In this document: positions 8,486 to 41,504 of the stretch, one piece after another | Position numbering within the stretch: position 1 is the stretch's first letter | How the letters are laid out: every line of letters begins with the position of its first letter | Origin: an uncultured Candidatus Peribacteria bacterium | GTDB lineage: Bacteria > Patescibacteriota > Gracilibacteria > Peribacterales > Peribacteraceae | NCBI GenBank assembly: GCA_964348745.1 | Contig: CAYGDT010000001.1 | Span: 1 to 41,504 of the forward strand | Direction: 5' to 3' | Length of the DNA stretch: 41,504 nucleotides | Made by a program: the position numbers and the translations under genes | The notes under the pieces: model-generated | Told to the model about the DNA's origin: nothing | Seen by the model: the letters and a program-made list of their open reading frames with translations, nothing else | Databases searched by the model: none

Positions 8486-10459
8486 CTACGGTGAAGTTAC
8501 AATGAAATCGACGGTCACGTCATACGTGCCGCTGGGTTGAATTTTAGACGATCCGACTTCTGCGCGAAATTGAAGTTGCTCAGACGATCCCGCCGGAGCG
8601 GTACTGGAGTTGCGATTGACAAGTAGCACACTGCTTCCTGTACCGACGTTCAACCATTTTTCACTGGTGAGATCCGTCCCCCATTGAACAGCAGAATCGG
8701 TACTGGAGGACTTTAGTCGACCTCCCCATTCAGACGTTGTCGCAGCGACTGTCCATGTTTCAGGTACTCCTACTACTGAAGGAGAGAACGGTCCAATAGT
8801 GTCCTCGAACTGACTGATCATATGTCCCGTTGCCGTTCCGCCCGATCCGGTCGAGACGAGCCAGGATAACGAGTATCCCGCATCGGATTCCGCAATAACG
8901 GTGCAACTTTCTTCTGCAGTGGTCTGACCGATACCGGGGATGCTCCCAAGATTAAGCGCGGTGAAACAGACGAGGGAAAGAGCGTTGCTAGCAGCTTGCC
9001 TGTACCCTGCTGAAAGATCGTAGTTTTGCGCTCTAGAAAAGCCGACACCTGGTTCGCCGATCGTATCACTCAGGCGGTAGTTATTTGAAAGCGCCAATTC
9101 TCCGCCACCCGAAGCGATAACATCAGCATCGATTTTGTAATTGGCACTTTTTTGAGCGGCATCGTTCGCAATCTGCCAAGCACGCATTTCCTGTGATTCG
9201 ATGCCACGAGTGTCAATAAGAATCAGAGGACCAACAAGATAAAATTCCGGAGAAATATCCGGTGCGTCGTAGATGTACGAAAACGTTGCTTTTTCCCCTT
9301 TATTCCATGTGCCGTTCCATGCAATTGTCGTATCCTCGGTCTGAAAATCTGTTCCTGTCACTGCTTGAGGAGATGTCTGCAGAATGGCAAACCCGCGCGG
9401 AACAATATCGGAGATTGTGCCTGTAAATTCTTCCGTAAACTCCACGTCGATTTCCATACGCGACGGCGCGAAAGGCCAGAGACGGGTCGCTGCGCGACGC
9501 GTGATGATCACCGATGGGGACGATTGCACGGAAACGGAGGAAGTAAGCGTCGTCGTACGCTCAGCAACAATCGATTGCAGCTGCAATGCGTATTCACCTT
9601 CTTGTGTGAACAAAAACGACGCTCTGTAGTCCGGGTCAATCAATCCTGCTTCTTTGACTCCGCAGGATTCGGTCGTCTCTATAGATTCGTCTTCTGTGGA
9701 GAGAACATGTCTGGAACCGTCCGGTGCTATGATAGTGAGCATCACATTCGCATTGCATACAATTTCACCTTGGTCATCCAACACGCCAAAATGCAGCTGC
9801 GCTCTCTCGTTCGTACGATAGCGATCCTGATGTGTATTGAGCGTAAGTACGCCCCATGCAAAGTCTTGCTCTGAATACCTCCCGTCAGTCGACGCGATAC
9901 GCAACGTATAGTACCCTGGACGGAATTGGCGCTCATCCAACGTAAATTCTGCACTGCCGGGCGTAAAATGATAATGAGGAAAATAGGTCACTCCGTCATT
10001 TCGTGTCAGACTCACAGTAACGGAAGTTGTTGGAAGTGGTTGCACTTCAGCAGACAAAGAAGAATTCTCCTGAGACAACCGAGATAATGATGAGTATGCA
10101 CTGCTGGGTGACGAGGAAGAATTGCGCATTGCAGATTGCACGTTCACAACTGTCCCTGCAGGCAAGCTCTCTGCATTGTCCGGTAGAGCATTGCGAAAAT
10201 TTGCACCCTGAGCATCCAAATCCTCCACAAGATCATGCAATGCCGGCGAAAGTTCCAGAGAAAATCCGAAGACTGATGCCGTTGTCGAACGATGTATGAA
10301 GAGGTATCCAGCAAGTACAGCAGACGTAATCAATATGGCAGCAAGGGTGCGTAACTCGCTTCGCCGAGAATGAGTAGCAATGATTGATGGAAAAGTCATC
10401 GGTGTGCATCCTATCAAACTATCAAAGATTACGCATTGTTCAGTAGCGTTGCGACACAT
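8486..10459 (-). CDS. Large membrane-anchored surface protein ending in the same two-Cys beta-sandwich domain as 3162-3917
   Basis: 657 aa; an alternative ATG lies at 10399. It has an N-terminal TM anchor (LAAILITSAVLAGYLFI) and a Ser-rich linker. Ig/MG-like beta domains follow (DRYRTNERAQLHFGVLDDQGEIV...), then a C-terminal domain of about 160 aa paralogous to the 251-aa protein. Confidence 0.7.
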   Translation of the reverse strand: MCRNATEQCVIFDSLIGCTPMTFPSIIATHSRRSELRTLAAILITSAVLAGYLFIHRSTTASVFGFSLELSPALHDLVEDLDAQGANFRNALPDNAESLPAGTVVNVQSAMRNSSSSPSSAYSSLSRLSQENSSLSAEVQPLPTTSVTVSLTRNDGVTYFPHYHFTPGSAEFTLDERQFRPGYYTLRIASTDGRYSEQDFAWGVLTLNTHQDRYRTNERAQLHFGVLDDQGEIVCNANVMLTIIAPDGSRHVLSTEDESIETTESCGVKEAGLIDPDYRASFLFTQEGEYALQLQSIVAERTTTLTSSVSVQSSPSVIITRRAATRLWPFAPSRMEIDVEFTEEFTGTISDIVPRGFAILQTSPQAVTGTDFQTEDTTIAWNGTWNKGEKATFSYIYDAPDISPEFYLVGPLILIDTRGIESQEMRAWQIANDAAQKSANYKIDADVIASGGGELALSNNYRLSDTIGEPGVGFSRAQNYDLSAGYRQAASNALSLVCFTALNLGSIPGIGQTTAEESCTVIAESDAGYSLSWLVSTGSGGTATGHMISQFEDTIGPFSPSVVGVPETWTVAATTSEWGGRLKSSSTDSAVQWGTDLTSEKWLNVGTGSSVLLVNRNSSTAPAGSSEQLQFRAEVGSSKIQPSGTYDVTVDFIVTSP

Positions 10460-10686
10460 GCCTCGTTTACTGAAACAATAAATTCAGTGAAAGCTACGGA
10501 AATCATCTTGCTTTGCACACTCGCAAATGAACTAAATACAAAAGTGCGGGATGAAAGGACAGAAGATTTTATTGATAAATCAGTAAATCTGAGCCAAATT
10601 ACGAAAGTTTACAAAAATGACTACACAAGTGTAGTAAACTTTGCTACAATGTAAAGATTTAATTACAAAATAAAAATAAAACACAA

Positions 10687-13600
10687 ATGTTTTCACTCTG
10701 TTCCTCCGACGATGCCAAGCGGCTTTACGCTTCTGTATGCGCCTCGCAACTGAGCGAACGTGCGAAGAAACGCTTGGACTGGATTGTGTACTACCTTGAG
10801 AACGGCAAGTCTATCAGTGAGACGTGCAGGATGTTTTCGATTTCACGCAGTACGTTTTACCGTGTGATTGAACGATTTGATCCTGCGGATATCACATCAC
10901 TGGAGGATAAGCCACACGCACATTGTTTGCGCTCACATACGGAACTACCGGCGGTTGCGATGGAACGCATCCGCGACGAACGGAAGAGGGAGCCGACAAT
11001 AAGTCGAGAGCGTATCGCAGAAATTCTCGCATCGGAATGCGGTATCGCTGTCTCTCCTTCTTTGATAGGCCGCATTATCAATCGCGAAGGATTGTTTTTT
11101 GGTGCGAGTCTCGCACATCAGAAGAAAAGGATCGAAAAGACAGCAGTGCAGGATGTAGATCATTCAGCAATTGCAGTCGGAAACTCTGCTCCCACATCAT
11201 CAAAATTGCTATTTGTACCTACTCGCCTGACGCTGATGACTCTGAGTATCGGCATCATTATAGCAGCCATGGTCGGAGGAAGTTTAACGGCTACAGTATT
11301 GTCTTCACCGAAGAGAGAAAACATTTCGGATGATCTTGTTATACGATGTGAGGAAGTTCTCAGAACATTTGCTTCGGTGCTTTCGTGGTATAAGCAACAT
11401 GGCAGGCAATATGAAGTGTCTGAAAGTGAGCAGATTGAACTCGATGCGTGCCGAAGCATTATCGACGGCCACACAAAGAACAAATCGTCTACCCTAAAAC
11501 CACTGGGGGCTGCCCTGCGATCAATTCTGAGCATTCCGCGCGCATATGCTGCAGAGGGTATTTTTAAGAAAATTCCGTACCAAGGAAATGTAACACTGAC
11601 ATCGGGAGCAGGGATGAGCAACGGCCAGTACAATATGCGCTTCAAAATCTTTGATGCGGCAAGCGGCGGGACGGAATTATGGTCTGAAACATGGGACAGC
11701 AATACACAACCTGTGACGATGACCGGAGGACTCTTTACAGTGTATCTCGGGACGCATATTGCAATGAACAACGTAGACTTCAATACGGATTCACTCTACC
11801 TCCAAGTGCAGTTTGACCCAGGAAATGACGATGTCTACGAGGAAACATTCTCACCGAGACGCAGGTTCGCATCCGTTCCGTATGCGCTAAATTCCGACAA
11901 AGTAGACGGTCTCGATGCCACGCAGTTTCTCCGCAGTGATGCAAGCGATGTGATGAGTGGCTCTCTGCTCATCCACCAATCTGGACAATCCGTATCGGGA
12001 GCAGATGCTCGGGTACAACTGGAAATCATCGGTACTGCATCTGGGAGAGTTCTGCATGCACAAGACCTGCTGACATCCTCCGGCAAATTGATTGTTGAGG
12101 GAACATCTTTGCTCTACGGCTATGTTGATATTTTTCGAATGCTCTCGATACATGACACGGCATCCGGAAGAGTACTGCACGCTGAAGATTCACTGCAATC
12201 CTCTGGATCACTCATCGTAGAAGGTGAAACAACGCTTAATGGTGCGCTGGTTCTCGGTTCCACTATCCGTATTAACGGTGTTACCTACACCTTCCCTGCT
12301 GGTGATGGCTCTGCTTCTGGCAAAGTACTCAAAACAAACGGCACAGGACAGCTCGCTTGGTCTAGCGACACTACTGGGTCAACATATTATGCTGGCGCAG
12401 GCCTATCGCTCAATGGCGCAAACTTCCTGTCCCTCTCTTCGACACTTACCGGTACCTCCTTGGAGATCACCGGTACGGCAAGCGGAAGAATCGTCCATGC
12501 GCAAGATCTCCTTCGCTCCTCCGGAGCACTCATCGTGAAAGGTACTACGCGCCTGCAATCAGGAGCCATTATAAGAATGGCGGCACCACTCCTTATCCTC
12601 CGTAGTAGTGTAACTTCCCAGCAGTGGGAGTTGAAAGGTGGCAGTACTTTATCGTCTTCTTTTAGTATCTATGATGCCACAGCAAAGAAAATCAGATTCG
12701 TGGTTGGCGGCTCAGACGGCAATACTACGATCGGTACTGGTGTGTCTGTCAGCAACAGCCGACTATACGTCTGGGGAGGTCCCAACGGTGCGAATATTGA
12801 CGTCCGGGGAGATGCTTCCATTGTTGGGGGCGATCAGTCGACCATAGAGCTTGAGGGCAATAACTATGATGTCGACCCCAATTCCATTCGCATGACGTAC
12901 TATGGTGCTAGCCATGGCATCGGGACAACCATGGGATACAGTAACAATAAACTCGGCGTGCTCGCATGGCAGGGCGTTAATACAGCCATCATTGCTGTGC
13001 AAGACATCAAACCTCTTCTCTTTGGTACAAGCAATAAGGAACGCATGAGACTGACCGAGACTGGTTCTCTTGCGATTGGAACTGCGACACCGGGTCGCTC
13101 TAAATTGGCTGTCTCCGGTTCTACGATTATGGGTTTCAATATTGGCTCCGCAGCCGCCGACGCAGGACTTGCACTCGAAGTCCTCGGTACGGCATCCGGT
13201 CGTATCTTCCATGCGCAAGACGAACTGCGCTCCTCCGGTACTCTGATCGTCGATGGAACCACAACGCTCAACGGTGCGCTGGTTCTTGGTTCCACTATCC
13301 GTATCGGTGGGGTCACCTATACCTTCCCTGTCGGCGATGGCTCCGCATCGGGCAAAGTACTCAAAACAAATGGTGCAGGGCAACTCTCTTGGTCAACCGA
13401 TAGCACTGGAGGAGGTGGATCGTACTACGCAGGCCAAGGCCTGTCTCTCAACGGTAGTAACTTCCTCTCCCTCGCAGCCACCCTCACAGGAACATCTCTG
13501 GAAATCTACGGAACAGCTTCCGGAAGAATCCTCCATGCACAAGACCAACTGCGTTCCTCCGGCACACTGATTGTGAAAGGAACAACACGCCTGCAATCAG

Positions 13601-16600
13601 GTGCTATCATCAAAATGACGTCACCACTCCTCGGTGACGGTCTCCAATTCATCATCGACCAGTCGCAGATCAGCGGTCCGGGACGTATTATGGCGATCGA
13701 TGATAATGTTGGTTCGGAAATCTTTGCTATCAACAAGTATGGATTCATAAAAACTGAGCGCGGCTATGTGTCCTACGATGGATTCATGGGACAAGAGTTC
13801 AATGACGAGAGAGCATCTGCTGCAGCCGACCTTGCGACACGCGGCGATGACGGGACATGGGTGTTCGACGAGGGAGCAGCGACATCCACCTGTACCGACA
13901 TCGTAGCGGAGGGCTCAATAAGTTTCGACCGTATGACTAACTCCGCCACACAACCAGCAGGCTGTGCCATGTTCATGGGAATCGGAGTCGGAGACATCAT
14001 GGGATTCACTAATGCTGCGAACTTGCCGCGCACGCTCATTAAGATACGACCGGGTCGCGCTACTGCCGATGCGCATACATGGGCTGGACTCTTTATCGAT
14101 TGGGCTCCCTCCGCAACCGAACCAACAGAGGGTATTTACTTCACCAATGCTGCGGGCGGTACATGGACCGGCCGCATTAACCCCGCATCCGGAGCGAGTT
14201 CAGATGTTGTCTGTACCGGGCAAACCATCTCGACAACACAGTTTGCTGCATTAGAAATTATCGTTGAGAGCTCGACCATCGTCCGTTTCAAAGTAGATAA
14301 TGACTTATCAAACGGTATTAACTTTGTAGACTGCGGCACGGGAAACCCTAGTGGCGTCACCAGTAACTTGGGGGCAGGTGTGTTTATGGGTACCACCTCC
14401 ACGACTAGCTTTACTATGGATACGGATTACGTTCGTGTATGGACAGATGACCCAAAAACAAGTGGGCAGTCCGTCGTGCAGACTCCAGAAACGCCAACAG
14501 AGCTGGATCTTACAACGAGTGCCGACCTCGCCGAAGCATACCCTGCCATCGACGCAGGAAGTTTTGGAGCCGGTGAGCTCGTTTCCATAGACGAAAAAGG
14601 AGATGGAAGTGTGCGAAAAAGTAAAAATCCATACGAGAAAAATTTGATCGGCGTCGTGAGCGCATCACCCTACGATGTCATGGGTGCGCAGTCGGAGAAT
14701 ACCGTAGCCATAGCACTAGCCGGACGTGTACCTGTAAGAGTCTCGACGGAGAACGGGCCTATTGCTGTGGGCGAATCCATCACCTCTTCTTCGAAGCCCG
14801 GCATCGGTATGAGAGCAAGTTCAGCAGGCCCAATCATCGGGAAAGCAATGCAAGCGTACGATGGTCAAGGTGAAGGTATCATTATGGTGTTTGTCTATGC
14901 AGGAGACTACGTCGGTGATGGGCTGTACCTGCTTGGCAGCGGCGCAAACACAATAGGTGAAAGCACTCAAAATTCCGGCACTTCAGCTGAGTATGCGGAA
15001 TGGTTTAAAGTATCAAACGATCATCCGATCGCCGGCGAAGTAGTTTGTATCGATCCGACAACACCGCAATCCGTTGCATATTGTGCAGATGAGCCGAGTG
15101 AAAACATCGTTGGCATTGTCGCCACGAGAGCGCAAATCGTAGGCAATGAATTTACAGGAGTACAGGGACTGCCTGTACCCGGTCACGTTCTGGTTGGCCT
15201 CATGGGGCAGACAACTGTAAAAGTCACTACTTTGGAAGGCAAATCCATTCGCATCGGAGATGCTCTCACTGCAGCAAGTACGAAAGGATTCGCACGCAAA
15301 TCGATCCGAGGTGAACCGACTATCGGGGTTGCTTTGGAAGAATTCACAGGTGAGGACGGCACAATTTCCATCCTTATATCCCGCAACAATGCTTCGCACA
15401 CTATGCAAGAAATCGAACAGAAGATACTCGATACCGTTGCGAGCATGGGACTCACCGAAAAGATGCAGAGCATCATCGCGCAGAGTATTGATACACTCGA
15501 CTTCGGTTATTCGATTAAAGAAGAAGTACGCGAGCAGCTACTGGCTCTCTACCTCTCGGAACCGCAGACTGCCGATGCACCATCTGTGAAACCGACACTT
15601 CCTGAGTTACTTACGCACGCACGCTCGTTCTCCGGTTCTACTCTGTTTGCTGGAAATGTCGAAGTTCAAGGAGCCCTTTCCGTGAGCGGACCTGTGAATA
15701 TGAGTGGCAGTCTCACCGTTGCCGAAATTCTTCGAACATCGCATCTCACCGCCTCAGGAAACCTCACTGTCGGTGGCTCCGCGCGTATCATGGGCGATGC
15801 CTATGTCGAAGGCACGCTGACCATCGCTTCGCTTATTGTGCCCGATGCTCTACATGTATATGGAGACATGACCGTACAAGGCTTCGTACAAGCGTATCAT
15901 CTTTCTGCCTCCAGTGGGGCAACCATCCGCGGGTCGATCGACATCGATACGCAGACAGGGTCGATCCGCATAGGATCCGGTTCTATCTCCATCAAATCCG
16001 GAAATATGATCCTCGAGAATGGAAGTATCGATGTGCAAGAACTCATCGTCCGCAAAGCGCTGTTACTCCACGGAGACATTACCGTAGAGGGTCTTGCTGT
16101 CTTCCTCGGCAATCTCGAAGTCCGCGGAGACCTGATTTTGAGTGACCGCCAGGCAGGATTTGCAGAGATTCCTGCCGGAGTAAGCAGTGTCAGAATCTCG
16201 TATGGAACAGGATTCATCGCAACTCCGATCATCACGGCAACACCGATGAGTCGTCTTAATACATCGTGGTGGATCGATGCTGTGACAAGCTCCGGGTTTA
16301 CGATCTTCTCTGCAGATCCCGTACCGCAGAATGCTCTCTTCTCATGGAATGCGATGCTCACAAACAATCCGAAAACCTTTAAAGGAACTGATAGTGAAAA
16401 AATACTGATCGACTTCCCCGTCGATTCATACGGTGTACCTCTCTCGAGCAACCCCGCTTGGAATGCATGCATCAGAAATCAAACACTCATTGATGAAGAA
16501 TCGGGAAAACCATTCAACTGCAGTCGCTACCATCAAGAACAGTTATGGACCCAGCCGGATCTGCTTCTGGAATTCCTCTACGATCCTGAGGCAAGCCCGA

Positions 16601-16971
16601 AATTTACGTTGCCGGATAACTATCGTATCGTTACGATCGAAGATACGAATAGTCAACGTGATCCATTGCCTGTAGGCGATGAAGAGGGATCCGAAGTGGT
16701 AGAAGAGAAAGTGGTAGGAGAGGAAATAGAAGAAGTAGAGGAAGTAGAAGGAGGAGAGGAAGTTGAAGAAGTTGAAGAAATAGAGGAAATTGAGGAAGTA
16801 GAAGGAGGAGAAGCGGAGAGCGAATCCGGGGCTGGATCTCAAATACCTCCAGTGGAATCAGAGGAAAATATTCAAGAGGAGCAACCGAAAGAAGTATCGA
16901 ACGAACAGAATGACACTACACAACAAACGCCAACAGAGACCGTGAATCCGGTTGAGGATACTGCGTCATAG
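10687..16971 (+). CDS. Giant (2094 aa) HTH - TM - tail-fibre-like surface protein
   Basis: One uninterrupted ORF.
- aa 25-135: transposase-type HTH (ISETCRMFSISRSTFYRVIERF...LEDKP...RERIAEIL...SPSLIGRII).
- aa 180-205: one TM helix.
- Fibre-type motifs follow (IPYQGNVT...YNMRFKIFD...LWSE; SVPYALNSDKVDGLDATQFLRSD).
- Five copies of TASGR[VI]xHA[QE]DxLxSSGxLIVxG and a duplication of about 155 aa.
- Two DLAEAY/YAEWF...VALAGRVPV-type modules.
- A beta-helix-like G/V/S-rich region.
- A WNACIRN module and an acidic E/V tail. Confidence 0.8.
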   Translation: MFSLCSSDDAKRLYASVCASQLSERAKKRLDWIVYYLENGKSISETCRMFSISRSTFYRVIERFDPADITSLEDKPHAHCLRSHTELPAVAMERIRDERKREPTISRERIAEILASECGIAVSPSLIGRIINREGLFFGASLAHQKKRIEKTAVQDVDHSAIAVGNSAPTSSKLLFVPTRLTLMTLSIGIIIAAMVGGSLTATVLSSPKRENISDDLVIRCEEVLRTFASVLSWYKQHGRQYEVSESEQIELDACRSIIDGHTKNKSSTLKPLGAALRSILSIPRAYAAEGIFKKIPYQGNVTLTSGAGMSNGQYNMRFKIFDAASGGTELWSETWDSNTQPVTMTGGLFTVYLGTHIAMNNVDFNTDSLYLQVQFDPGNDDVYEETFSPRRRFASVPYALNSDKVDGLDATQFLRSDASDVMSGSLLIHQSGQSVSGADARVQLEIIGTASGRVLHAQDLLTSSGKLIVEGTSLLYGYVDIFRMLSIHDTASGRVLHAEDSLQSSGSLIVEGETTLNGALVLGSTIRINGVTYTFPAGDGSASGKVLKTNGTGQLAWSSDTTGSTYYAGAGLSLNGANFLSLSSTLTGTSLEITGTASGRIVHAQDLLRSSGALIVKGTTRLQSGAIIRMAAPLLILRSSVTSQQWELKGGSTLSSSFSIYDATAKKIRFVVGGSDGNTTIGTGVSVSNSRLYVWGGPNGANIDVRGDASIVGGDQSTIELEGNNYDVDPNSIRMTYYGASHGIGTTMGYSNNKLGVLAWQGVNTAIIAVQDIKPLLFGTSNKERMRLTETGSLAIGTATPGRSKLAVSGSTIMGFNIGSAAADAGLALEVLGTASGRIFHAQDELRSSGTLIVDGTTTLNGALVLGSTIRIGGVTYTFPVGDGSASGKVLKTNGAGQLSWSTDSTGGGGSYYAGQGLSLNGSNFLSLAATLTGTSLEIYGTASGRILHAQDQLRSSGTLIVKGTTRLQSGAIIKMTSPLLGDGLQFIIDQSQISGPGRIMAIDDNVGSEIFAINKYGFIKTERGYVSYDGFMGQEFNDERASAAADLATRGDDGTWVFDEGAATSTCTDIVAEGSISFDRMTNSATQPAGCAMFMGIGVGDIMGFTNAANLPRTLIKIRPGRATADAHTWAGLFIDWAPSATEPTEGIYFTNAAGGTWTGRINPASGASSDVVCTGQTISTTQFAALEIIVESSTIVRFKVDNDLSNGINFVDCGTGNPSGVTSNLGAGVFMGTTSTTSFTMDTDYVRVWTDDPKTSGQSVVQTPETPTELDLTTSADLAEAYPAIDAGSFGAGELVSIDEKGDGSVRKSKNPYEKNLIGVVSASPYDVMGAQSENTVAIALAGRVPVRVSTENGPIAVGESITSSSKPGIGMRASSAGPIIGKAMQAYDGQGEGIIMVFVYAGDYVGDGLYLLGSGANTIGESTQNSGTSAEYAEWFKVSNDHPIAGEVVCIDPTTPQSVAYCADEPSENIVGIVATRAQIVGNEFTGVQGLPVPGHVLVGLMGQTTVKVTTLEGKSIRIGDALTAASTKGFARKSIRGEPTIGVALEEFTGEDGTISILISRNNASHTMQEIEQKILDTVASMGLTEKMQSIIAQSIDTLDFGYSIKEEVREQLLALYLSEPQTADAPSVKPTLPELLTHARSFSGSTLFAGNVEVQGALSVSGPVNMSGSLTVAEILRTSHLTASGNLTVGGSARIMGDAYVEGTLTIASLIVPDALHVYGDMTVQGFVQAYHLSASSGATIRGSIDIDTQTGSIRIGSGSISIKSGNMILENGSIDVQELIVRKALLLHGDITVEGLAVFLGNLEVRGDLILSDRQAGFAEIPAGVSSVRISYGTGFIATPIITATPMSRLNTSWWIDAVTSSGFTIFSADPVPQNALFSWNAMLTNNPKTFKGTDSEKILIDFPVDSYGVPLSSNPAWNACIRNQTLIDEESGKPFNCSRYHQEQLWTQPDLLLEFLYDPEASPKFTLPDNYRIVTIEDTNSQRDPLPVGDEEGSEVVEEKVVGEEIEEVEEVEGGEEVEEVEEIEEIEEVEGGEAESESGAGSQIPPVESEENIQEEQPKEVSNEQNDTTQQTPTETVNPVEDTAS
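12142..12594 (+). repeat. Internal duplication, copy 1 (about 150 codons) within the giant gene
   Basis: Peptide ...DTASGRVLHAEDSLQSSGSLIVEGETTLNGALVLGSTIRINGVTYTFPAGDGSASGKVLKTNGTGQLAWS...TLTGTSLEITGTASGRIVHAQDLLRSSGALIVKGTTRLQSGAIIRMAAPLL. The similarity to copy 2 is also obvious at nucleotide level (for example ggtgcgctggttctcggttccactatccgtat). Confidence 0.85.
13168..13632 (+). repeat. Internal duplication, copy 2 within the giant gene
   Basis: Peptide LALEVLGTASGRIFHAQDELRSSGTLIVDGTTTLNGALVLGSTIRIGGVTYTFPVGDGSASGKVLKTNGAGQLSWS...TLTGTSLEIYGTASGRILHAQDQLRSSGTLIVKGTTRLQSGAIIKMTSPLL. It lies about 1.03 kb downstream of copy 1. Confidence 0.85.
16681..16825 (+). repeat. Purine-rich low-complexity coding repeat (acidic E/V/G tail of the giant protein)
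   Basis: GAA/GAG/GTA/GGA codon runs encode EEKVVGEEIEEVEEVEGGEEVEEVEEIEEIEEVEGGEAESE. Confidence 0.8.
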
Positions 16972-39467: not shown

Positions 39468-40505
39468 ATGCTAAAGGGCGTAATATCATTCTTCCGTACG
39501 AAGTGCGGCGGTCGCATGCTGCTATCAACATTGTTGATCTGCTCCGCTGCGCTGATACGCTCCGATGATGAAAGACACATCCCATACGAAGCTCATTTCA
39601 TGCAAACGCAGACGATGCTTGTCGCGGTAGATGCCGAACCAGCCGAGGTCTCATCCTCGCTCTCACGACTGCTTCCAGATATTGAAGTGACTACCATTTT
39701 GGAAAGAGCTGATCCTGTGGAAGCTTACGTGCCAGTTCCGAAACTGAAGACAGAGCGAAATACTTCTATTCAACATATTCCGAGGCAACGAAGACACATT
39801 CGATTATCGGAGGAAATTGCAGTCCTGCCAGCCGCTACCGAAGCGAAGTTTCCGGAGCTGGGCAATGCCATATACCCCGTAGCAAAAACGCCAGACTGGG
39901 GCGACATGCGCTCGTCTGCTGAGTGGAACCGGTCATACGATGAAATGGGACCTTCGGATTTCGTACCTGTTCCAGCCTATGACATAAGCAGGCTAACCAC
40001 ACCTATGTATGACCTTTCCCGTGATCTGCAGGAAGTGAACATCCCCATCGTCACCGAAAAGCTCTTCTACTCAACGCGCTTCTTTGGTCGCTACCACGCG
40101 GACTCTGGAGAGTTCCAAGGTACACACCCTGGCATAGACCTTAAGCTCGCGGCAGGTACGCCTGTCGGTTCCGTCGCAGGCGGTCGGGTGCACGCCACTG
40201 GTACTGATGAATCCCTCGGGAACTTCGTCATGATTCTGCATAGATTACCTGATGGAAACGAGATTGTATCTATCTATGGACATCTTGAATCCGTAAGCGT
40301 ACGGGAAGGTCAGGACGTCGCTCCGGGAACAATCATCGGTAGAGCGGGTTCAACTGGTCGCTCGAGCGGCGTTCACCTGCATTTACAGATCGATTGGAAA
40401 CGGGAGCCGGTTAGACATACTGTCTATGCACCAGCATCCCGTCCGTCGAAGGAAGAAGCATCAAAATGGACTATTCATCCGATCGAATTTATTCAACGAT
40501 GGTAG
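39468..40505 (+). CDS. M23-family peptidoglycan endopeptidase (exported)
   Basis: Hydrophobic N-terminus (MLLSTLLICSAALI). M23 motifs: HPGIDL, GGRVH, YGHLES and GSTGRSSGVHLHLQI. Confidence 0.8.
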   Translation: MLKGVISFFRTKCGGRMLLSTLLICSAALIRSDDERHIPYEAHFMQTQTMLVAVDAEPAEVSSSLSRLLPDIEVTTILERADPVEAYVPVPKLKTERNTSIQHIPRQRRHIRLSEEIAVLPAATEAKFPELGNAIYPVAKTPDWGDMRSSAEWNRSYDEMGPSDFVPVPAYDISRLTTPMYDLSRDLQEVNIPIVTEKLFYSTRFFGRYHADSGEFQGTHPGIDLKLAAGTPVGSVAGGRVHATGTDESLGNFVMILHRLPDGNEIVSIYGHLESVSVREGQDVAPGTIIGRAGSTGRSSGVHLHLQIDWKREPVRHTVYAPASRPSKEEASKWTIHPIEFIQRW

Positions 40506-41504
40506 TCTGCTCGCTTAAGACAGCGGTCTCGTCCTCCTCCACTGAGATAACAATAGTCTCCTCATCGAGAACAACTGGATCAACGGTCTCGTTCTTTACG
40601 ATAAGCTTATCATACAGAAACTTACCCCTCTGCGCGATATACTGCGTCATTGGTAAGATGTACTTAGCAACAACGTTGCCGTTGACCACAGTCAAATCTT
40701 TGACCATGAGAATATCCGGTGTGGGTACGGTGTAGGTGGCGACTGTGTAACCGTGAACACCGACACGCTTCACGAAACGATCTGACCAGTCAAAGGATAT
40801 GAGTGTATCTGGGTGCTCCCAGGAGTGTCCGCGATGGTAGCGGCGGCAGTTCACCGGTCTGTCCTGACCATCAATAAAGAGTTGTACGTTACGGATACAG
40901 GCATTCCACACCATGTCACTGGAGACCGGGTAACCGTCTTCACCGACGGCGAAGTTGATTGGCTTCGGCCTAAAAGCCTCGCGCGCTGCAATCTCCATGG
41001 CGATCTTCTCCTGCTCAGCCTTTTTGGCGTCAATCTCGGAGAGGCGCTCTTCCTCCAAGCGCGCAGCATCAATGGCACCGCAGGCAGGGTGACCGTTTTC
41101 TAGAATATCCTCAATCAGTTCCTCCTTGACGTCAAAGGCACGGGCATAGTTCTCCGCCATAAATCCGACGATGTCAAAGAACTGAAGCAGGTTGATCTTC
41201 TCGCGAACCGTACACAAAGTAGCCATCTGTTCATCTGTAAGTTCGCCAGTTCCGGCTCCGGGTCCAGGTCCTCCGAATCCGCTCGGTGCGACTCCCACGT
41301 CGCCAAACCCTACGTTCGACAGTCCAATGAGGTAGCGAACAAGATTTTGTCTGCGATACCGTGACCCCTGGATCCCGCTATCGTCAGTTTCTTCTTCATT
41401 GCTGATACTCGATGAACTCTCACTCGAGGAACTGCTTGATGAAGAGCTTTCACTCGAGGAACTGCTTGATGAAGAGCTTTCACTCGAGGAACTGCTTGAT
41501 GAAG
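40489..41504 (-). CDS. Ser-repeat protein with a WNACIRN module (5-prime partial; the ORF is open to the window edge)
   Basis: The frame stays open from 41504 down to the stop at 40489; the track start at 41298 is an internal GTG. The N-terminal part is poly-Ser (SSSSSSSESS units). The middle contains DGYPVSSDMVWNACIRNVQLFIDGQDRPVNCRRYHRGHSWEHPDTLISF, paralogous to aa 1906-1967 of the giant protein. Confidence 0.7.
   Translation of the reverse strand, partial: SSSSSSSESSSSSSSSSESSSSSSSSSESSSSISNEEETDDSGIQGSRYRRQNLVRYLIGLSNVGFGDVGVAPSGFGGPGPGAGTGELTDEQMATLCTVREKINLLQFFDIVGFMAENYARAFDVKEELIEDILENGHPACGAIDAARLEEERLSEIDAKKAEQEKIAMEIAAREAFRPKPINFAVGEDGYPVSSDMVWNACIRNVQLFIDGQDRPVNCRRYHRGHSWEHPDTLISFDWSDRFVKRVGVHGYTVATYTVPTPDILMVKDLTVVNGNVVAKYILPMTQYIAQRGKFLYDKLIVKNETVDPVVLDEETIVISVEEDETAVLSEQTTIVE
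41421..41504 (-). repeat. Perfect 30-nt tandem repeat (2.8 copies, truncated by the window end) encoding a Ser-rich decapeptide
   Basis: The unit CACTCGAGGAACTGCTTGATGAAGAGCTTT occurs at 41421-41450, 41451-41480 and 41481-41504. In the coding frame it reads TCA TCA AGC AGT TCC TCG AGT GAA AGC TCT, which is SSSSSSSESS. Confidence 0.9.

What the first reader, a model, noticed from the sequence alone, without database searches (positions are those of the whole stretch)
10687..11301. Transposase-type HTH fused through one TM helix to a giant fibre-like ectodomain
The first about 135 residues read like the N-terminal DNA-binding region of IS481/IS630-type transposases (GKSISETCRMFSISRSTFYRVIERF...SLEDKP...ISRERIAEILASECGIAVSPSLIGRIINREGL). 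There is no DDE catalytic domain. The same ORF continues without a stop into one TM helix (aa 180-205) and about 1900 extracellular residues. The predicted topology is DNA-binding domain inside and adhesin-like fibre outside. That is the layout of ToxR/CadC-type membrane-bound one-component regulators, but on a 2094-aa scale and with a domesticated transposase HTH. It could couple surface or host contact to transcription, directly or after regulated proteolysis.
Basis: partly seen in the sequence, partly recalled or inferred. Interest (0 to 1): 0.75.

Follow-up and report, generated by a model that had tools for sequence, protein, structure and literature searches.

The report
Membrane-anchored transposase-type HTH fused to fibre
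The 2094-residue gene is real: it is the fused form of a two-gene cassette, apparently undescribed, that recurs in Peregrinibacteria (CPR bacteria), in which a small membrane-anchored DNA-binding protein derived from an IS481-type transposase always sits directly upstream of a large or giant surface-fibre gene, so it probably links the cell-surface fibre to the DNA inside the cell.

Summary
ORF 10687-16971 (+) encodes 2094 aa. It has an IS481/IS630-type bipartite HTH (aa ~24-134) and no DDE domain. It has one TM helix (aa ~179-206), with the N-terminus predicted to be cytoplasmic. The acidic ectodomain is about 1890 aa.

The fusion is not an artefact. A syntenic orthologue (L006) reads in frame across both junctions, and other fused relatives exist (P0014; P0181, identical in 13 contigs). 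The usual state, however, is split. About 190 representative relatives carry the same HTH. Most are ~250-aa HTH+TM proteins. In 7 of 7 contexts examined, the small gene lies directly upstream of a fibre gene of 879 to 6782 aa and often overlaps its start. Those fibre genes share the window protein's N-domain.

The real fusion joint is at aa ~266-288, not between the HTH and the TM helix. The HTH-TM group separates cleanly from true transposases.

Best reading (inferred): a membrane-tethered DNA-binding partner that is physically coupled to the fibre base. It is ToxR/ToxS-like in layout but has a domesticated transposase HTH. DNA binding, DNA targets and signalling are untested. I rate it a new variant of a known kind, of moderately high interest.

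The parts
10620..10650 (+). Promoter-like region: TACACA (10622-10627), 17-nt spacer, TG-TACAAT (ends 10650). It overlaps a perfect palindrome ACTACAC-aa-GTGTAGT (10620-10635). A CA-rich leader without a Shine-Dalgarno motif runs from there to the ATG.
   Evidence: The -10 element and part of the palindrome are conserved in L006 and L001. The palindrome occurs once in the window, and its half-site is not clearly enriched. A role as operator is speculation.
10687..16971 (+). Whole fused ORF, 2094 aa, identical to database protein P0115.
10756..10875 (+). First three-helix HTH subdomain (aa 24-63); recognition helix ISRSTFYRV.
   Evidence: Pfam HTH_28 and HTH_23. AlphaFold helices 24-38, 43-50 and 54-63 with pLDDT above 90. 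Nearly invariant family residues R29, L30, S42, T56, R59 and F64.
10951..11088 (+). Second three-helix HTH subdomain (aa 89-134); recognition helix SPSLIGRII.
   Evidence: Pfam HTH_32. AlphaFold helices 89-101, 107-118 and 124-134. The best Foldseek matches are Pax5 and Pax6 paired-domain-DNA complexes (weak E-values).
11110..11220 (+). Family-conserved basic helix (aa 142-162, motif H-x-x-K-R), followed by a disordered cytoplasmic linker (aa 163-178).
11221..11304 (+). The single transmembrane helix (aa 179-206), predicted N-in and C-out.
   Evidence: Positive-inside rule across 90 family members: 3.28 against 1.24 K+R, p = 1.8e-12.
11323..11481 (+). Extracytoplasmic helical hairpin (aa 213-265) with two conserved Cys (C221 and C254). 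It is homologous to the C-terminal tail of the separate small protein P0116.
11482..11550 (+). The real fusion joint (aa 266-288): a relic of the fibre's signal-anchor, PLGAALRSILSIPRAYA|AEG, with an AxA-like motif.
   Evidence: Alignment with the split cassette L018 and the fused orthologue L006.
11551..11976 (+). Conserved fibre N-domain (aa 289-430; IPYQG...YNMRFKI), a beta-sandwich.
   Evidence: 56-58% identical to the N-termini of P0017 and P0022, and present at the start of all the partner fibre genes. AlphaFold pLDDT about 95, with Ig/macroglobulin-like structural neighbours. Weak Bdello_MAT_N match.
11977..13836 (+). Repeat region (aa 431-1050): the LEIxGTASGRxxHAQ motif four times and the INGVTYTFP motif twice, forming a duplicated super-repeat of about 385 aa.
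   Evidence: Modelled with low confidence as a monomer.
13837..14946 (+). Central ectodomain region with no family assignment (aa 1051-1420).
   Evidence: No Pfam, PHROG or PDB sequence match. About 59% identical to the orthologue in L006.
14950..15150 (+). Weak similarity to the Peptidase_G2 intramolecular-chaperone (tail-fibre) domain (aa 1422-1488).
   Evidence: E 0.016, 15 bits against a cut-off of 25, so below threshold. Relatives P0022 and P0181 show the same faint hit.
15634..16056 (+). Beta-solenoid segment (aa 1650-1790), bactofilin/FapA-like.
   Evidence: Bactofilin 27.2 bits against a cut-off of 27.9; FapA 29.5 bits against 31.
16057..16686 (+). Conserved C-terminal domain shared with the short fibres P0017 and P0022 (aa 1791-2000).
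   Evidence: 34% identity to P0022 residues 587-874.
16687..16968 (+). Acidic, Glu/Val-rich low-complexity tail (aa 2001-2094).
   Evidence: 33 Glu in 94 residues.

Best explanation
What it is (well supported). The ORF is the fused version of a conserved two-gene cassette found in Peregrinibacteria/Peribacteria. Gene 1 encodes a protein of about 250 aa. Its cytoplasmic N-terminus is a bipartite, paired-like HTH derived from an IS481-type transposase, with no catalytic domain. A single N-in/C-out TM helix and a short external tail follow. Gene 2 lies directly downstream and often overlaps gene 1's stop codon. It encodes a large or giant secreted or anchored fibre protein that begins with a conserved beta-sandwich N-domain. 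In the window's lineage a deletion removed the stop codon of gene 1 and most of the signal-anchor of gene 2. The HTH protein's TM helix now exports and anchors the fibre.

How it most likely works (inferred). The HTH-TM protein and the base of the fibre form a stoichiometric complex at the membrane. The basic HTH binds DNA while it remains membrane-tethered. It acts as a transmembrane transcription regulator whose extracytoplasmic partner or sensor is the fibre. This is the logic of the ToxR/ToxS, TcpP/TcpH, PsaE/PsaF and VtrA/VtrC pairs, here sometimes fused. The state of the fibre, such as its assembly or contact with a host cell, would then be coupled to gene expression.

Shown here: the domain identities, the topology prediction, conservation of the fusion, the gene pairing, and the separation from active transposases. 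Inferred: the physical complex, DNA binding, any regulatory output and any sensing.
For: The ORF and its domains are established. There is one TM helix. The positive-inside rule holds across the family: 68 members follow it and 9 do not, p = 1.8e-12. The HTH region is basic, pI 9.15 in the window protein and 9.15 on average in the family, while the ectodomain has pI 4.56. The AlphaFold model has mean pLDDT 80 and shows two three-helix bundles, a TM helix and an external hairpin. Its best structural neighbours are the Pax5 and Pax6 paired-domain-DNA complexes. Residues in both recognition helices are nearly invariant across 52 members that are only 24-34% identical overall. An exhaustive search found 192 representative relatives at E<=1e-10. 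Of the top 149, 90 have a TM helix after the HTH, and none of the nine scanned with Pfam (seven longer than 300 aa and two small members) has an rve domain. Family members score 206-331 bits against the family profile, whereas rve-bearing transposases score 114 bits or less. By HTH identity, 113 HTH-TM, long and window sequences cluster together with no transposases among them. Gene pairing holds in 7 of 7 contexts: small genes P0122, P0124, P0125, P0133, P0116 and P0269 are followed by genes of >=3069, 6782, 3267, 4217, 2315 and 4758 aa, and fibre P0022 is preceded by a 259-aa HTH gene. Five of the seven pairs overlap or abut. All partner fibres start with the same N-domain as window aa 289-430, and the tail of P0116 matches window aa 215-262. 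Fusions recur. L006 is in frame over aa 120-478. P0014 is fused. A class of 29 long fused proteins includes P0181, which is identical in 13 contigs from independent assemblies. These fusions lie in at least three different HTH sub-lineages. Recurrent fusion of adjacent genes is the classic sign of physical or functional coupling (established 'Rosetta stone' reasoning).
Against: No DNA target was found. The palindrome at 10620-10635 is only partly conserved in the orthologues, and no operator motif is shared across cassettes. The Foldseek matches to paired domains have weak E-values (0.08-0.25), and the profile search of PDB sequences found nothing significant. Translational coupling to a structural gene is unusual for a classical transcription factor. 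In the split cassettes the external tail of the HTH protein is very short, 60 aa or less in 59 of 90 members, so any sensing must go through another protein. The closest HTH relative, L001, has an in-frame TGA just before the TM region. The organism is uncultivated, and there are no expression or proteomic data.
Confidence: 0.5

Rival explanations
1. DNA-membrane tether, or export aid, rather than a regulator. The transposase-derived HTH binds DNA in cis near its own gene, as transposases tend to do. Because the protein is inserted into the membrane while being translated just before the giant ORF is translated, it would drag the mRNA and the locus to the translocon. That would help co-transcriptional export of proteins of 2000-6800 aa.
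For: The HTH gene is always upstream. In 5 of 7 cassettes it overlaps or abuts the fibre gene's start, which is consistent with translational coupling. The partners are exceptionally long, up to 6782 aa. In the fused forms the HTH protein's TM helix serves as the export signal.
Against: The cassette also occurs with a fibre of only 879 aa. No conserved cis site was found. A TM helix alone would be enough for membrane targeting, so this model does not explain why two recognition helices are strongly conserved.
Confidence: 0.2
2. Precursor or polyprotein. The fused protein is cleaved outside the membrane at the retained motif IPRAYA|AEG. This regenerates the same two parts as in split cassettes, so the fusion itself adds no new signalling property.
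For: The motif (I/V)P(K/R)A(E/Y)A|A(T/E)GI directly precedes the N-domain in all the split fibres, and it is kept at the joint in both the window protein and L006. The 29 long fused proteins retain a complete internal signal-peptide-like helix before their fibre N-domain.
Against: The relic hydrophobic stretch (LGAALRSILSI) is short and interrupted by Arg, and it does not reach the TM threshold. Classical signal-peptidase recognition is therefore doubtful. There is no experimental evidence. This reading is compatible with the best explanation and does not exclude it.
Confidence: 0.25
3. The HTH is a protein-interaction adaptor and does not bind DNA. This would resemble RodZ, whose cytoplasmic HTH binds MreB. 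It would anchor the fibre base to a cytoplasmic structure or to secretion or pilus machinery.
For: There is precedent for an HTH-TM-ectodomain protein whose HTH has a non-DNA ligand (RodZ; established knowledge). No DNA motif was found. About half of the small members carry a CxxC motif before the TM helix, which hints at another cytoplasmic function.
Against: The domain is basic, with pI about 9.1. The residues conserved in both recognition helices are the same ones conserved in true IS481/IS630 transposases. The nearest structural matches are DNA-bound paired domains.
Confidence: 0.1
4. Artefact or non-functional accident: an assembly chimera or frameshift, a decaying IS remnant that happens to be in frame, or a fibre whose real translation start is at M184 or M195.
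For: The closest HTH relative, L001, carries a TGA just before the TM region. In L006 the gene caller split the orthologue and started one fragment at the residue aligned to M195.
Against: L006 reads in frame without a stop from aa 120 to aa 478, across both junctions. Its many frame switches also affect neighbouring genes, so they are assembly indels. HTH+TM is the native single-gene architecture in about 90 representatives. The window's TM helix is homologous to the small protein's TM helix and not to the fibres' signal peptides, and M184 has no charged n-region before it. No promoter-like or terminator-like site lies between 10700 and 11700 on the + strand. The HTH is 55% identical to P0001, with its recognition helices intact.
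Confidence: 0.05

Closest known systems
Transmembrane transcription regulators with a co-component partner (ToxR/ToxS, TcpP/TcpH, PsaE/PsaF, VtrA/VtrC; CadC as a single-chain form)
   Same: They have a cytoplasmic N-terminal DNA-binding domain, one TM helix with N-in topology, and an extracytoplasmic part. The partner membrane protein is encoded immediately downstream in the same operon. PsaE/PsaF control a surface fibre, the PsaA fimbria. See PMC11856585, PMC8407435 and PMC5430869, plus established knowledge.
   Different: Here the DNA-binding domain is a bipartite, paired-like HTH from an IS481/IS630-type transposase, not an OmpR/PhoB winged helix. The partner is itself a giant structural fibre of 879-6782 aa and not a small periplasmic sensor. 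The genes often overlap, and they have fused repeatedly. No regulatory function has been shown.
IS481-family transposases (N-terminal DNA-binding region)
   Same: The HTH_28/HTH_23 plus HTH_32 architecture is shared. The match covers positions 1-118 of the IS481 model. Identity to bona fide transposases such as the L002 ORF and P0002 is 29-33%.
   Different: There is no rve/DDE domain, and the score (58.6 bits) is far below the family cut-off (224 bits). A TM helix follows where the catalytic core would be. The group forms a sequence cluster separate from transposases.
Phage tail-fibre/tailspike-like surface fibres, including Bdellovibrio mosaic adhesive trimer (MAT) fibres (PMC10769870)
   Same: These are modular, repeat-rich, Gly/Ser/Thr-rich extracellular proteins. 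The window protein has a weak Bdello_MAT_N match, a beta-solenoid segment and a faint Peptidase_G2 IMC match. Relatives carry Peptidase_S74, Laminin_G_3, LVIVD and FG-GAP modules and are named 'tail fiber domain-containing'.
   Different: All matches in the window protein itself are below the curated cut-offs. There is no PHROG or PDB sequence match. Trimer formation is not shown. No MAT or phage fibre is known to be linked to a cytoplasmic HTH (my own knowledge).
MYRF, the eukaryotic membrane-bound transcription factor with a phage tailspike ICA domain (PMC3742443, PMC3742440)
   Same: One polypeptide combines a DNA-binding domain, a TM helix and (here only faintly) a tail-fibre intramolecular-chaperone module.
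   Different: [quoted passage not shown] Here the IMC-like segment is far out in the ectodomain and could not release the HTH. The DNA-binding domains are unrelated: Ndt80-type in MYRF and paired-like HTH here.
RodZ
   Same: The layout is the same: N-terminal cytoplasmic HTH, basic juxtamembrane segment, single TM helix, extracytoplasmic domain.
   Different: RodZ has an XRE-type HTH that binds MreB (established knowledge). No XRE-type or RodZ C-terminal domain match was found here.

Membership tests
ToxR-like transmembrane transcription regulators | Cytoplasmic N-terminal DNA-binding domain followed by one TM helix, with N-in topology | tested here: met
ToxR-like transmembrane transcription regulators | The DNA-binding domain is an OmpR/PhoB-type winged helix (Pfam Trans_reg_C) | tested here: not met
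   No Trans_reg_C match at E<=1. The domain is HTH_28/HTH_23 plus HTH_32, i.e. IS481/IS630 type.
ToxR-like transmembrane transcription regulators | Extracytoplasmic sensor domain, or a partner protein encoded directly downstream | tested here: inconclusive
   The layout is met: fused here, and in 7 of 7 split cassettes the partner gene lies directly downstream. A sensing role for the fibre is not shown.
ToxR-like transmembrane transcription regulators | Binds promoter DNA and regulates transcription while membrane-bound | not testable with these tools
   No conserved operator was found. This needs EMSA, DAP-seq or reporter assays.
IS481 family transposase | Full-length match above the curated NCBIfam cut-off | tested here: not met
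   58.6 bits against a cut-off of 224; only model positions 1-118 of 284 are matched.
IS481 family transposase | DDE catalytic core (Pfam rve, rve_3) | tested here: not met
   Absent from the window protein and from the nine relatives scanned. Present in all the low-scoring true transposases.
HTH-TM plus fibre cassette of Peregrinibacteria (defined in this report) | IS481-like bipartite HTH followed within about 60 residues by a single TM helix, with no catalytic domain | tested here: met
HTH-TM plus fibre cassette of Peregrinibacteria (defined in this report) | Directly followed, as a separate gene or in the same ORF, by a fibre protein that starts with the (I/V)xYQGK...YNMRFKI beta-sandwich N-domain | tested here: met
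   Window aa 289-430.
Phage tail fibre / Bdellovibrio MAT fibre | MAT N-terminal domain (NCBIfam NF053851) above its cut-off | tested here: not met
   25.7 bits against a cut-off of 60.
Phage tail fibre / Bdellovibrio MAT fibre | C-terminal intramolecular-chaperone domain (Peptidase_S74 or Peptidase_G2) | tested here: inconclusive
   Peptidase_G2 scores 15 bits against a cut-off of 25, E 0.016, in the window protein. The domains are present in relatives.
Phage tail fibre / Bdellovibrio MAT fibre | Trimeric fibre or beta-helix structure | tested here: inconclusive
   The bactofilin-type solenoid scores 27.2 bits against 27.9. The monomer AlphaFold model of the repeat region has low confidence. 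No multimer prediction was available.
RodZ | XRE-type HTH and the RodZ C-terminal domain | tested here: not met
   No such Pfam matches.
MYRF-type membrane-bound transcription factor | [quoted passage not shown] | tested here: not met
   Only a 16-residue disordered linker lies between the basic helix and the TM helix. The faint IMC-like segment is at aa 1422-1488, outside the cell.

The most novel reading that the evidence does not exclude
The cassette is a trans-envelope contact or force sensor of an episymbiotic CPR bacterium. Engagement of the giant fibre with a host cell would change the state of the membrane-anchored, transposase-derived HTH. This could happen by clustering (for example trimerisation driven by the fibre), by a conformational signal, or by regulated proteolysis. 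The change would switch on an attachment or parasitism programme. It would be a bacterial analogue of Notch- or MYRF-type membrane-tethered transcription factors, built from a domesticated transposase and a phage-like fibre.
Probability: 0.15. Interest if true: 0.9.

Novelty: new variant of a known kind. Interest (0 to 1): 0.68.

Why it matters
CPR/Patescibacteria are ultra-small and mostly episymbiotic, and how they sense and hold on to host cells is largely unknown. This analysis turns one odd ORF into a defined, recurrent genetic module that can be tested. The module is a transposase-derived DNA-binding domain anchored in the membrane and strictly paired with, or fused to, the largest surface proteins of these cells. 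If the HTH binds DNA, the module would be a new class of transmembrane regulator and a clear bacterial case of transposase domestication. It would also give a direct handle, through the binding sites, on the genes that respond to surface-fibre status. For annotation, the family is currently labelled 'transposase', 'integrase catalytic subunit' or 'hypothetical'. Those labels are misleading.

Tried and rejected
1. The word-indexed homologue search with aa 1-300 found only two hits. This wrongly suggested an orphan. The exhaustive HMMER search was needed to find the family.

2. The genome-collection and metagenome-collection scans with the HTH alignment returned only distant true transposases. 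They were uninformative apart from showing where the HTH came from.

3. I first read the AAGGAGG after L001's stop codon as a Shine-Dalgarno site for a separate downstream gene. Comparison with L006 showed that it encodes the Arg-rich pre-TM stretch in the same frame. L001 therefore remains ambiguous and is not evidence for a split.

4. The operator search did not succeed. The palindrome at 10620-10635 is unique in the window and only partly conserved, and no palindrome is shared across ten cassette promoters.

5. L006 as a pseudogene: rejected, because the neighbouring genes are frame-shifted as well.

6. The PDB sequence searches with the HTH profile and with the ectodomain, and the PHROG scan of the ectodomain, were empty or insignificant.

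7. Foldseek on the ectodomain model gave only generic Ig/macroglobulin-like beta-sandwich neighbours.

8. My first regex for the fibre N-domain and my first neighbour-joining script failed. I replaced them with BLAST and UPGMA clustering.

9. Seven literature searches and two papers read found no description of this cassette.
Full report
**1.

The window contains one ORF from ATG 10687 to the stop at 16969-16971, encoding 2094 aa.

Residues 28-147 match only the N-terminal DNA-binding part of transposase models. The IS481 match covers positions 1-118 of 284 (E 7e-16, 58.6 bits against a cut-off of 224). The IS630 match covers positions 5-114 of 299. Pfam HTH_32, HTH_28 and HTH_23 match above their gathering scores. 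No rve/DDE match occurs anywhere in the protein.

A hydropathy scan finds one hydrophobic segment in the whole protein, at aa ~181-206.

An AlphaFold model of aa 1-290, built with a 52-sequence family alignment, has mean pLDDT 80. It shows:
- two three-helix bundles (aa 24-63 and 89-134);
- a basic helix (aa 142-162);
- a disordered linker (aa 163-178);
- a TM helix (aa 179-206);
- three external helices (aa 213-281).

Its best structural neighbours are the Pax5 and Pax6 paired-domain-DNA complexes (probability 0.96 and 0.85, but E 0.08-0.25). That is the bipartite fold expected for IS630/IS481-type transposase N-termini. The cytoplasmic part is basic (pI 9.15) and the ectodomain is acidic (pI 4.56).

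**2. Context**

The neighbouring genes encode SLH, dockerin-like, sortase, LysM-M23, Mur ligase and RNase HII proteins, and there are three tRNA genes. This is ordinary chromosomal DNA. Judging from its relatives, the organism is a Peregrinibacteria/Peribacteria (CPR) bacterium.

A sigma-70-like site (TACACA, 17 nt, TG-TACAAT; 10622-10650) precedes the ATG. No promoter-like or terminator-like site lies between the HTH and the TM region.

**3. The fusion is real**

- A syntenic orthologue is present in an independent assembly (L006, ENA ERZ1286166). It shares the upstream 369-aa and dockerin-like genes and is 45-60% identical across most of the protein.
- L006 switches frame about ten times. 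Its neighbouring genes are also frame-shifted, so these are assembly indels.
- One frame of L006 is open without a stop from query aa 120 to aa 478. That span covers the second HTH, the Arg-rich stretch, the TM helix, the external hairpin and the fibre N-domain.
- A more distant NCBI MAG protein, P0014, is also a single ORF with an HTH, a TM helix and fibre repeats.
- A class of 29 long proteins (829-1979 aa) begins with the same HTH and shares fibre repeats with the window protein.
- One of these, P0181 (1728 aa, Ca. Peribacteria), is identical in 13 contigs from several independent assemblies.

**4. The usual state is a two-gene cassette**

The exhaustive HMMER search with aa 1-290 found 745 representatives at E<=1e-3 and 192 at E<=1e-10.

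Most of the best 149 are 190-290 aa long. They have the HTH at aa ~10-155, one TM helix at aa ~190-240, and a short tail. Ninety of the 149 have a TM helix after the HTH.

The flanks of the TM helix obey the positive-inside rule. The N-terminal flank averages 3.28 K+R and the C-terminal flank 1.24. Sixty-eight members follow the rule and nine do not (Wilcoxon p = 1.8e-12). The HTH is therefore cytoplasmic.

I examined the genomic context of six small members:

| Small gene | Downstream gene (same strand) | Modules reported in the downstream gene |
|---|---|---|
| P0122 | >=3069 aa | Laminin_G_3, FG-GAP |
| P0124 | 6782 aa | not looked up |
| P0125 | 3267 aa | LVIVD, pectate-lyase fold, Peptidase_S74 |
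| P0133 | 4217 aa | not looked up |
| P0116 | 2315 aa | none reported |
| P0269 | 4758 aa | Laminin_G_3, LVIVD |

Four of the six pairs overlap or abut by 1-8 nt.

In the reverse test I picked the 879-aa fibre P0022 only for its fibre homology. It is preceded by a 259-aa HTH gene that overlaps its start by 7 nt. Pairing therefore holds in 7 of 7 contexts.

**5. Anatomy of the fusion**

All partner fibres start with their own signal-anchor. This is followed by '...P-x-A-x-A | A-x-G-I-x-x-I-x-Y-Q-G-K ... Y-N-M-R-F-K-I', the same domain as window aa 289-430. That domain is modelled as a confident beta-sandwich.

The tail of the small protein P0116 after its TM helix is a helical hairpin with two conserved Cys. 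It aligns with window aa 215-262.

The window ORF therefore equals a P0116-like small gene plus a fibre gene. The stop codon and most of the fibre's signal-anchor have been deleted. The joint is at aa ~266-288 (nt 11482-11550), where the relic PLGAALRSILSIPRAYA|AEG remains.

The window's TM helix is homologous to the small protein's TM helix and not to the fibres' signal peptides. M184 has no charged n-region before it, which argues against an internal start.

The rest of the ectodomain is as follows:
- aa 431-1050: a duplicated repeat region;
- aa 1051-1420: unassigned;
- aa 1422-1488: a faint Peptidase_G2 IMC match;
- aa 1650-1790: a near-threshold bactofilin-type beta-solenoid;
- aa 1791-2000: a C-terminal domain shared with the short fibres P0017 and P0022;
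- aa 2001-2094: an acidic tail.

'Fibre-like' is thus a reasonable description but is not proven. PHROG and PDB sequence searches were empty.

**6. The HTH is domesticated, not an active transposase**

Against the family profile, HTH-TM proteins score 206-331 bits and have no rve domain. Proteins that carry rve and rve_3 all score 114 bits or less.

Clustering by HTH identity puts 113 HTH-TM, long and window sequences in one group that contains no transposases. All 22 transposases fall in another group.

At a finer level, the window protein with P0001, the long class, and P0014 fall in different sub-groups. Fusion to the fibre has therefore happened at least three times.

Residues in both recognition helices are nearly invariant across members that are otherwise 24-34% identical: S42, T56, R59 and F64 in the first, and S123, S125, G128, R129 and I131 in the second. 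This indicates selection on the DNA-reading surfaces.

**7. Mechanism**

Shown here: a cytoplasmic, basic, conserved bipartite HTH; a membrane anchor; obligatory genetic coupling to a surface fibre; and recurrent fusion to it.

Inferred: recurrent fusion and overlapping genes point to a stoichiometric physical complex at the fibre base.

My best reading is a membrane-tethered DNA-binding regulator whose extracytoplasmic partner is the fibre. This is the logic of ToxR/ToxS, TcpP/TcpH, PsaE/PsaF and VtrA/VtrC (PMC11856585, PMC8407435), carried out with a different DNA-binding fold.

The rivals are:
- a cis-acting DNA-membrane tether that aids export of giant proteins;
- a precursor that is cleaved at the retained AxA motif into the usual two parts;
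- a RodZ-like adaptor that does not bind DNA;
- an artefact or an internal start, which is now unlikely.

I could not identify a DNA target. The palindrome ACTACAC-aa-GTGTAGT overlaps the -35-like hexamer. It is unique in the window, only partly conserved in L006 and L001, and has no counterpart in other cassettes.

**8. Comparison with known systems, and novelty**

The protein is not a member of the ToxR family, because it lacks the OmpR-type winged helix. It is not an IS481 transposase, because it has no DDE domain and scores far below the cut-off. It is not RodZ and not MYRF-like in domain order.

It works most like a co-component transmembrane regulator.

The full-text searches found no description of this cassette. 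This includes the Peribacteria genome paper and the giant-gene preprint, which reports type II secretion-like loci upstream of giant genes and not HTH genes.

Database names for family members are 'transposase', 'Integrase catalytic subunit', 'helix-turn-helix domain-containing protein' and 'hypothetical'.

I rate it a new variant of a known kind, with interest about 0.68.

**9. Caveats**

- All evidence is computational.
- The organism is uncultivated.
- Context was sampled in seven loci, not in a full census.
- The taxonomic range rests on the few named members.
- The closest HTH relative (L001, a 717-bp contig) has an in-frame TGA just before the TM region, and I could not resolve it.

Noticed in passing
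window 10641-10686; also L001, L005, L006, L007, L012, L016, L017 and L018 upstream of the HTH genes: The cassette promoters share an extended -10-like 'TGCTAyAAT' about 40-50 nt before the start codon, followed by a CA-rich leader with no Shine-Dalgarno motif. This may be a lineage-wide way of starting transcription and translation, or it may be specific to the cassette.
   Followed up: partly
L001 689-691 (closest relative of the HTH, a 717-bp contig): An in-frame TGA (…FLKS*ETRTRRRR) lies just before the Arg-rich pre-TM stretch, which is open in the related L006 (…FLRWQARLLPRR…). The contig ends 26 nt later. It could be a nonsense mutation, a genuine split, a sequencing error or stop-codon read-through.
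   Followed up: partly
Small HTH-TM proteins (for example L007 6001-6741, L016 4182-4919, L017 6001-6789): A CxxC motif occurs within 45 residues before the TM helix in 29 of 61 small family members. It is absent from the window protein. It might bind a metal or respond to redox state on the cytoplasmic side.
   Followed up: no
window 11533-11562 (aa 283-292) and the starts of the fibre genes in L007 and L015-L018: The motif (I/V)P(K/R)A(E/Y)A|A(T/E)GI directly precedes the fibre N-domain in split cassettes and is kept at the fusion joint. It may be a processing site.
   Followed up: partly
window 40792-40959 (-), inside ORF 40489-41298: A second ORF in the window carries a segment 46% identical over 56 aa to part of the fibre's C-terminal domain (fibre aa ~1908-1963). 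It may be a small paralogue or a shared cell-surface module.
   Followed up: no
L013 11216-12775 compared with L012 and L014: A serine recombinase gene (Resolvase/Recombinase/Zn_ribbon_recom) sits directly after the fused P0181 gene in one assembly but not in two others that are otherwise identical locally. It looks like a variable mobile insertion next to the cassette.
   Followed up: no
window 8486-10459 (-), 657-aa ORF divergent from the fibre gene: The ORF has no Pfam match. It is conserved and syntenic in L006, where its C-terminal ~150 aa also matches a second locus. This is an uncharacterised protein family next to the cassette, within a cluster of SLH and dockerin-like envelope genes.
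   Followed up: no
P0158-P0248 class (for example P0181 aa 380-470, P0180 aa 380-470): The long fused proteins keep an internal TM helix plus a complete signal-peptide-like helix just before their fibre N-domain (YNGHLL…IRFSYWKS). The predicted topology therefore crosses the membrane three times, and internal signal-peptidase processing is possible.
   Followed up: partly
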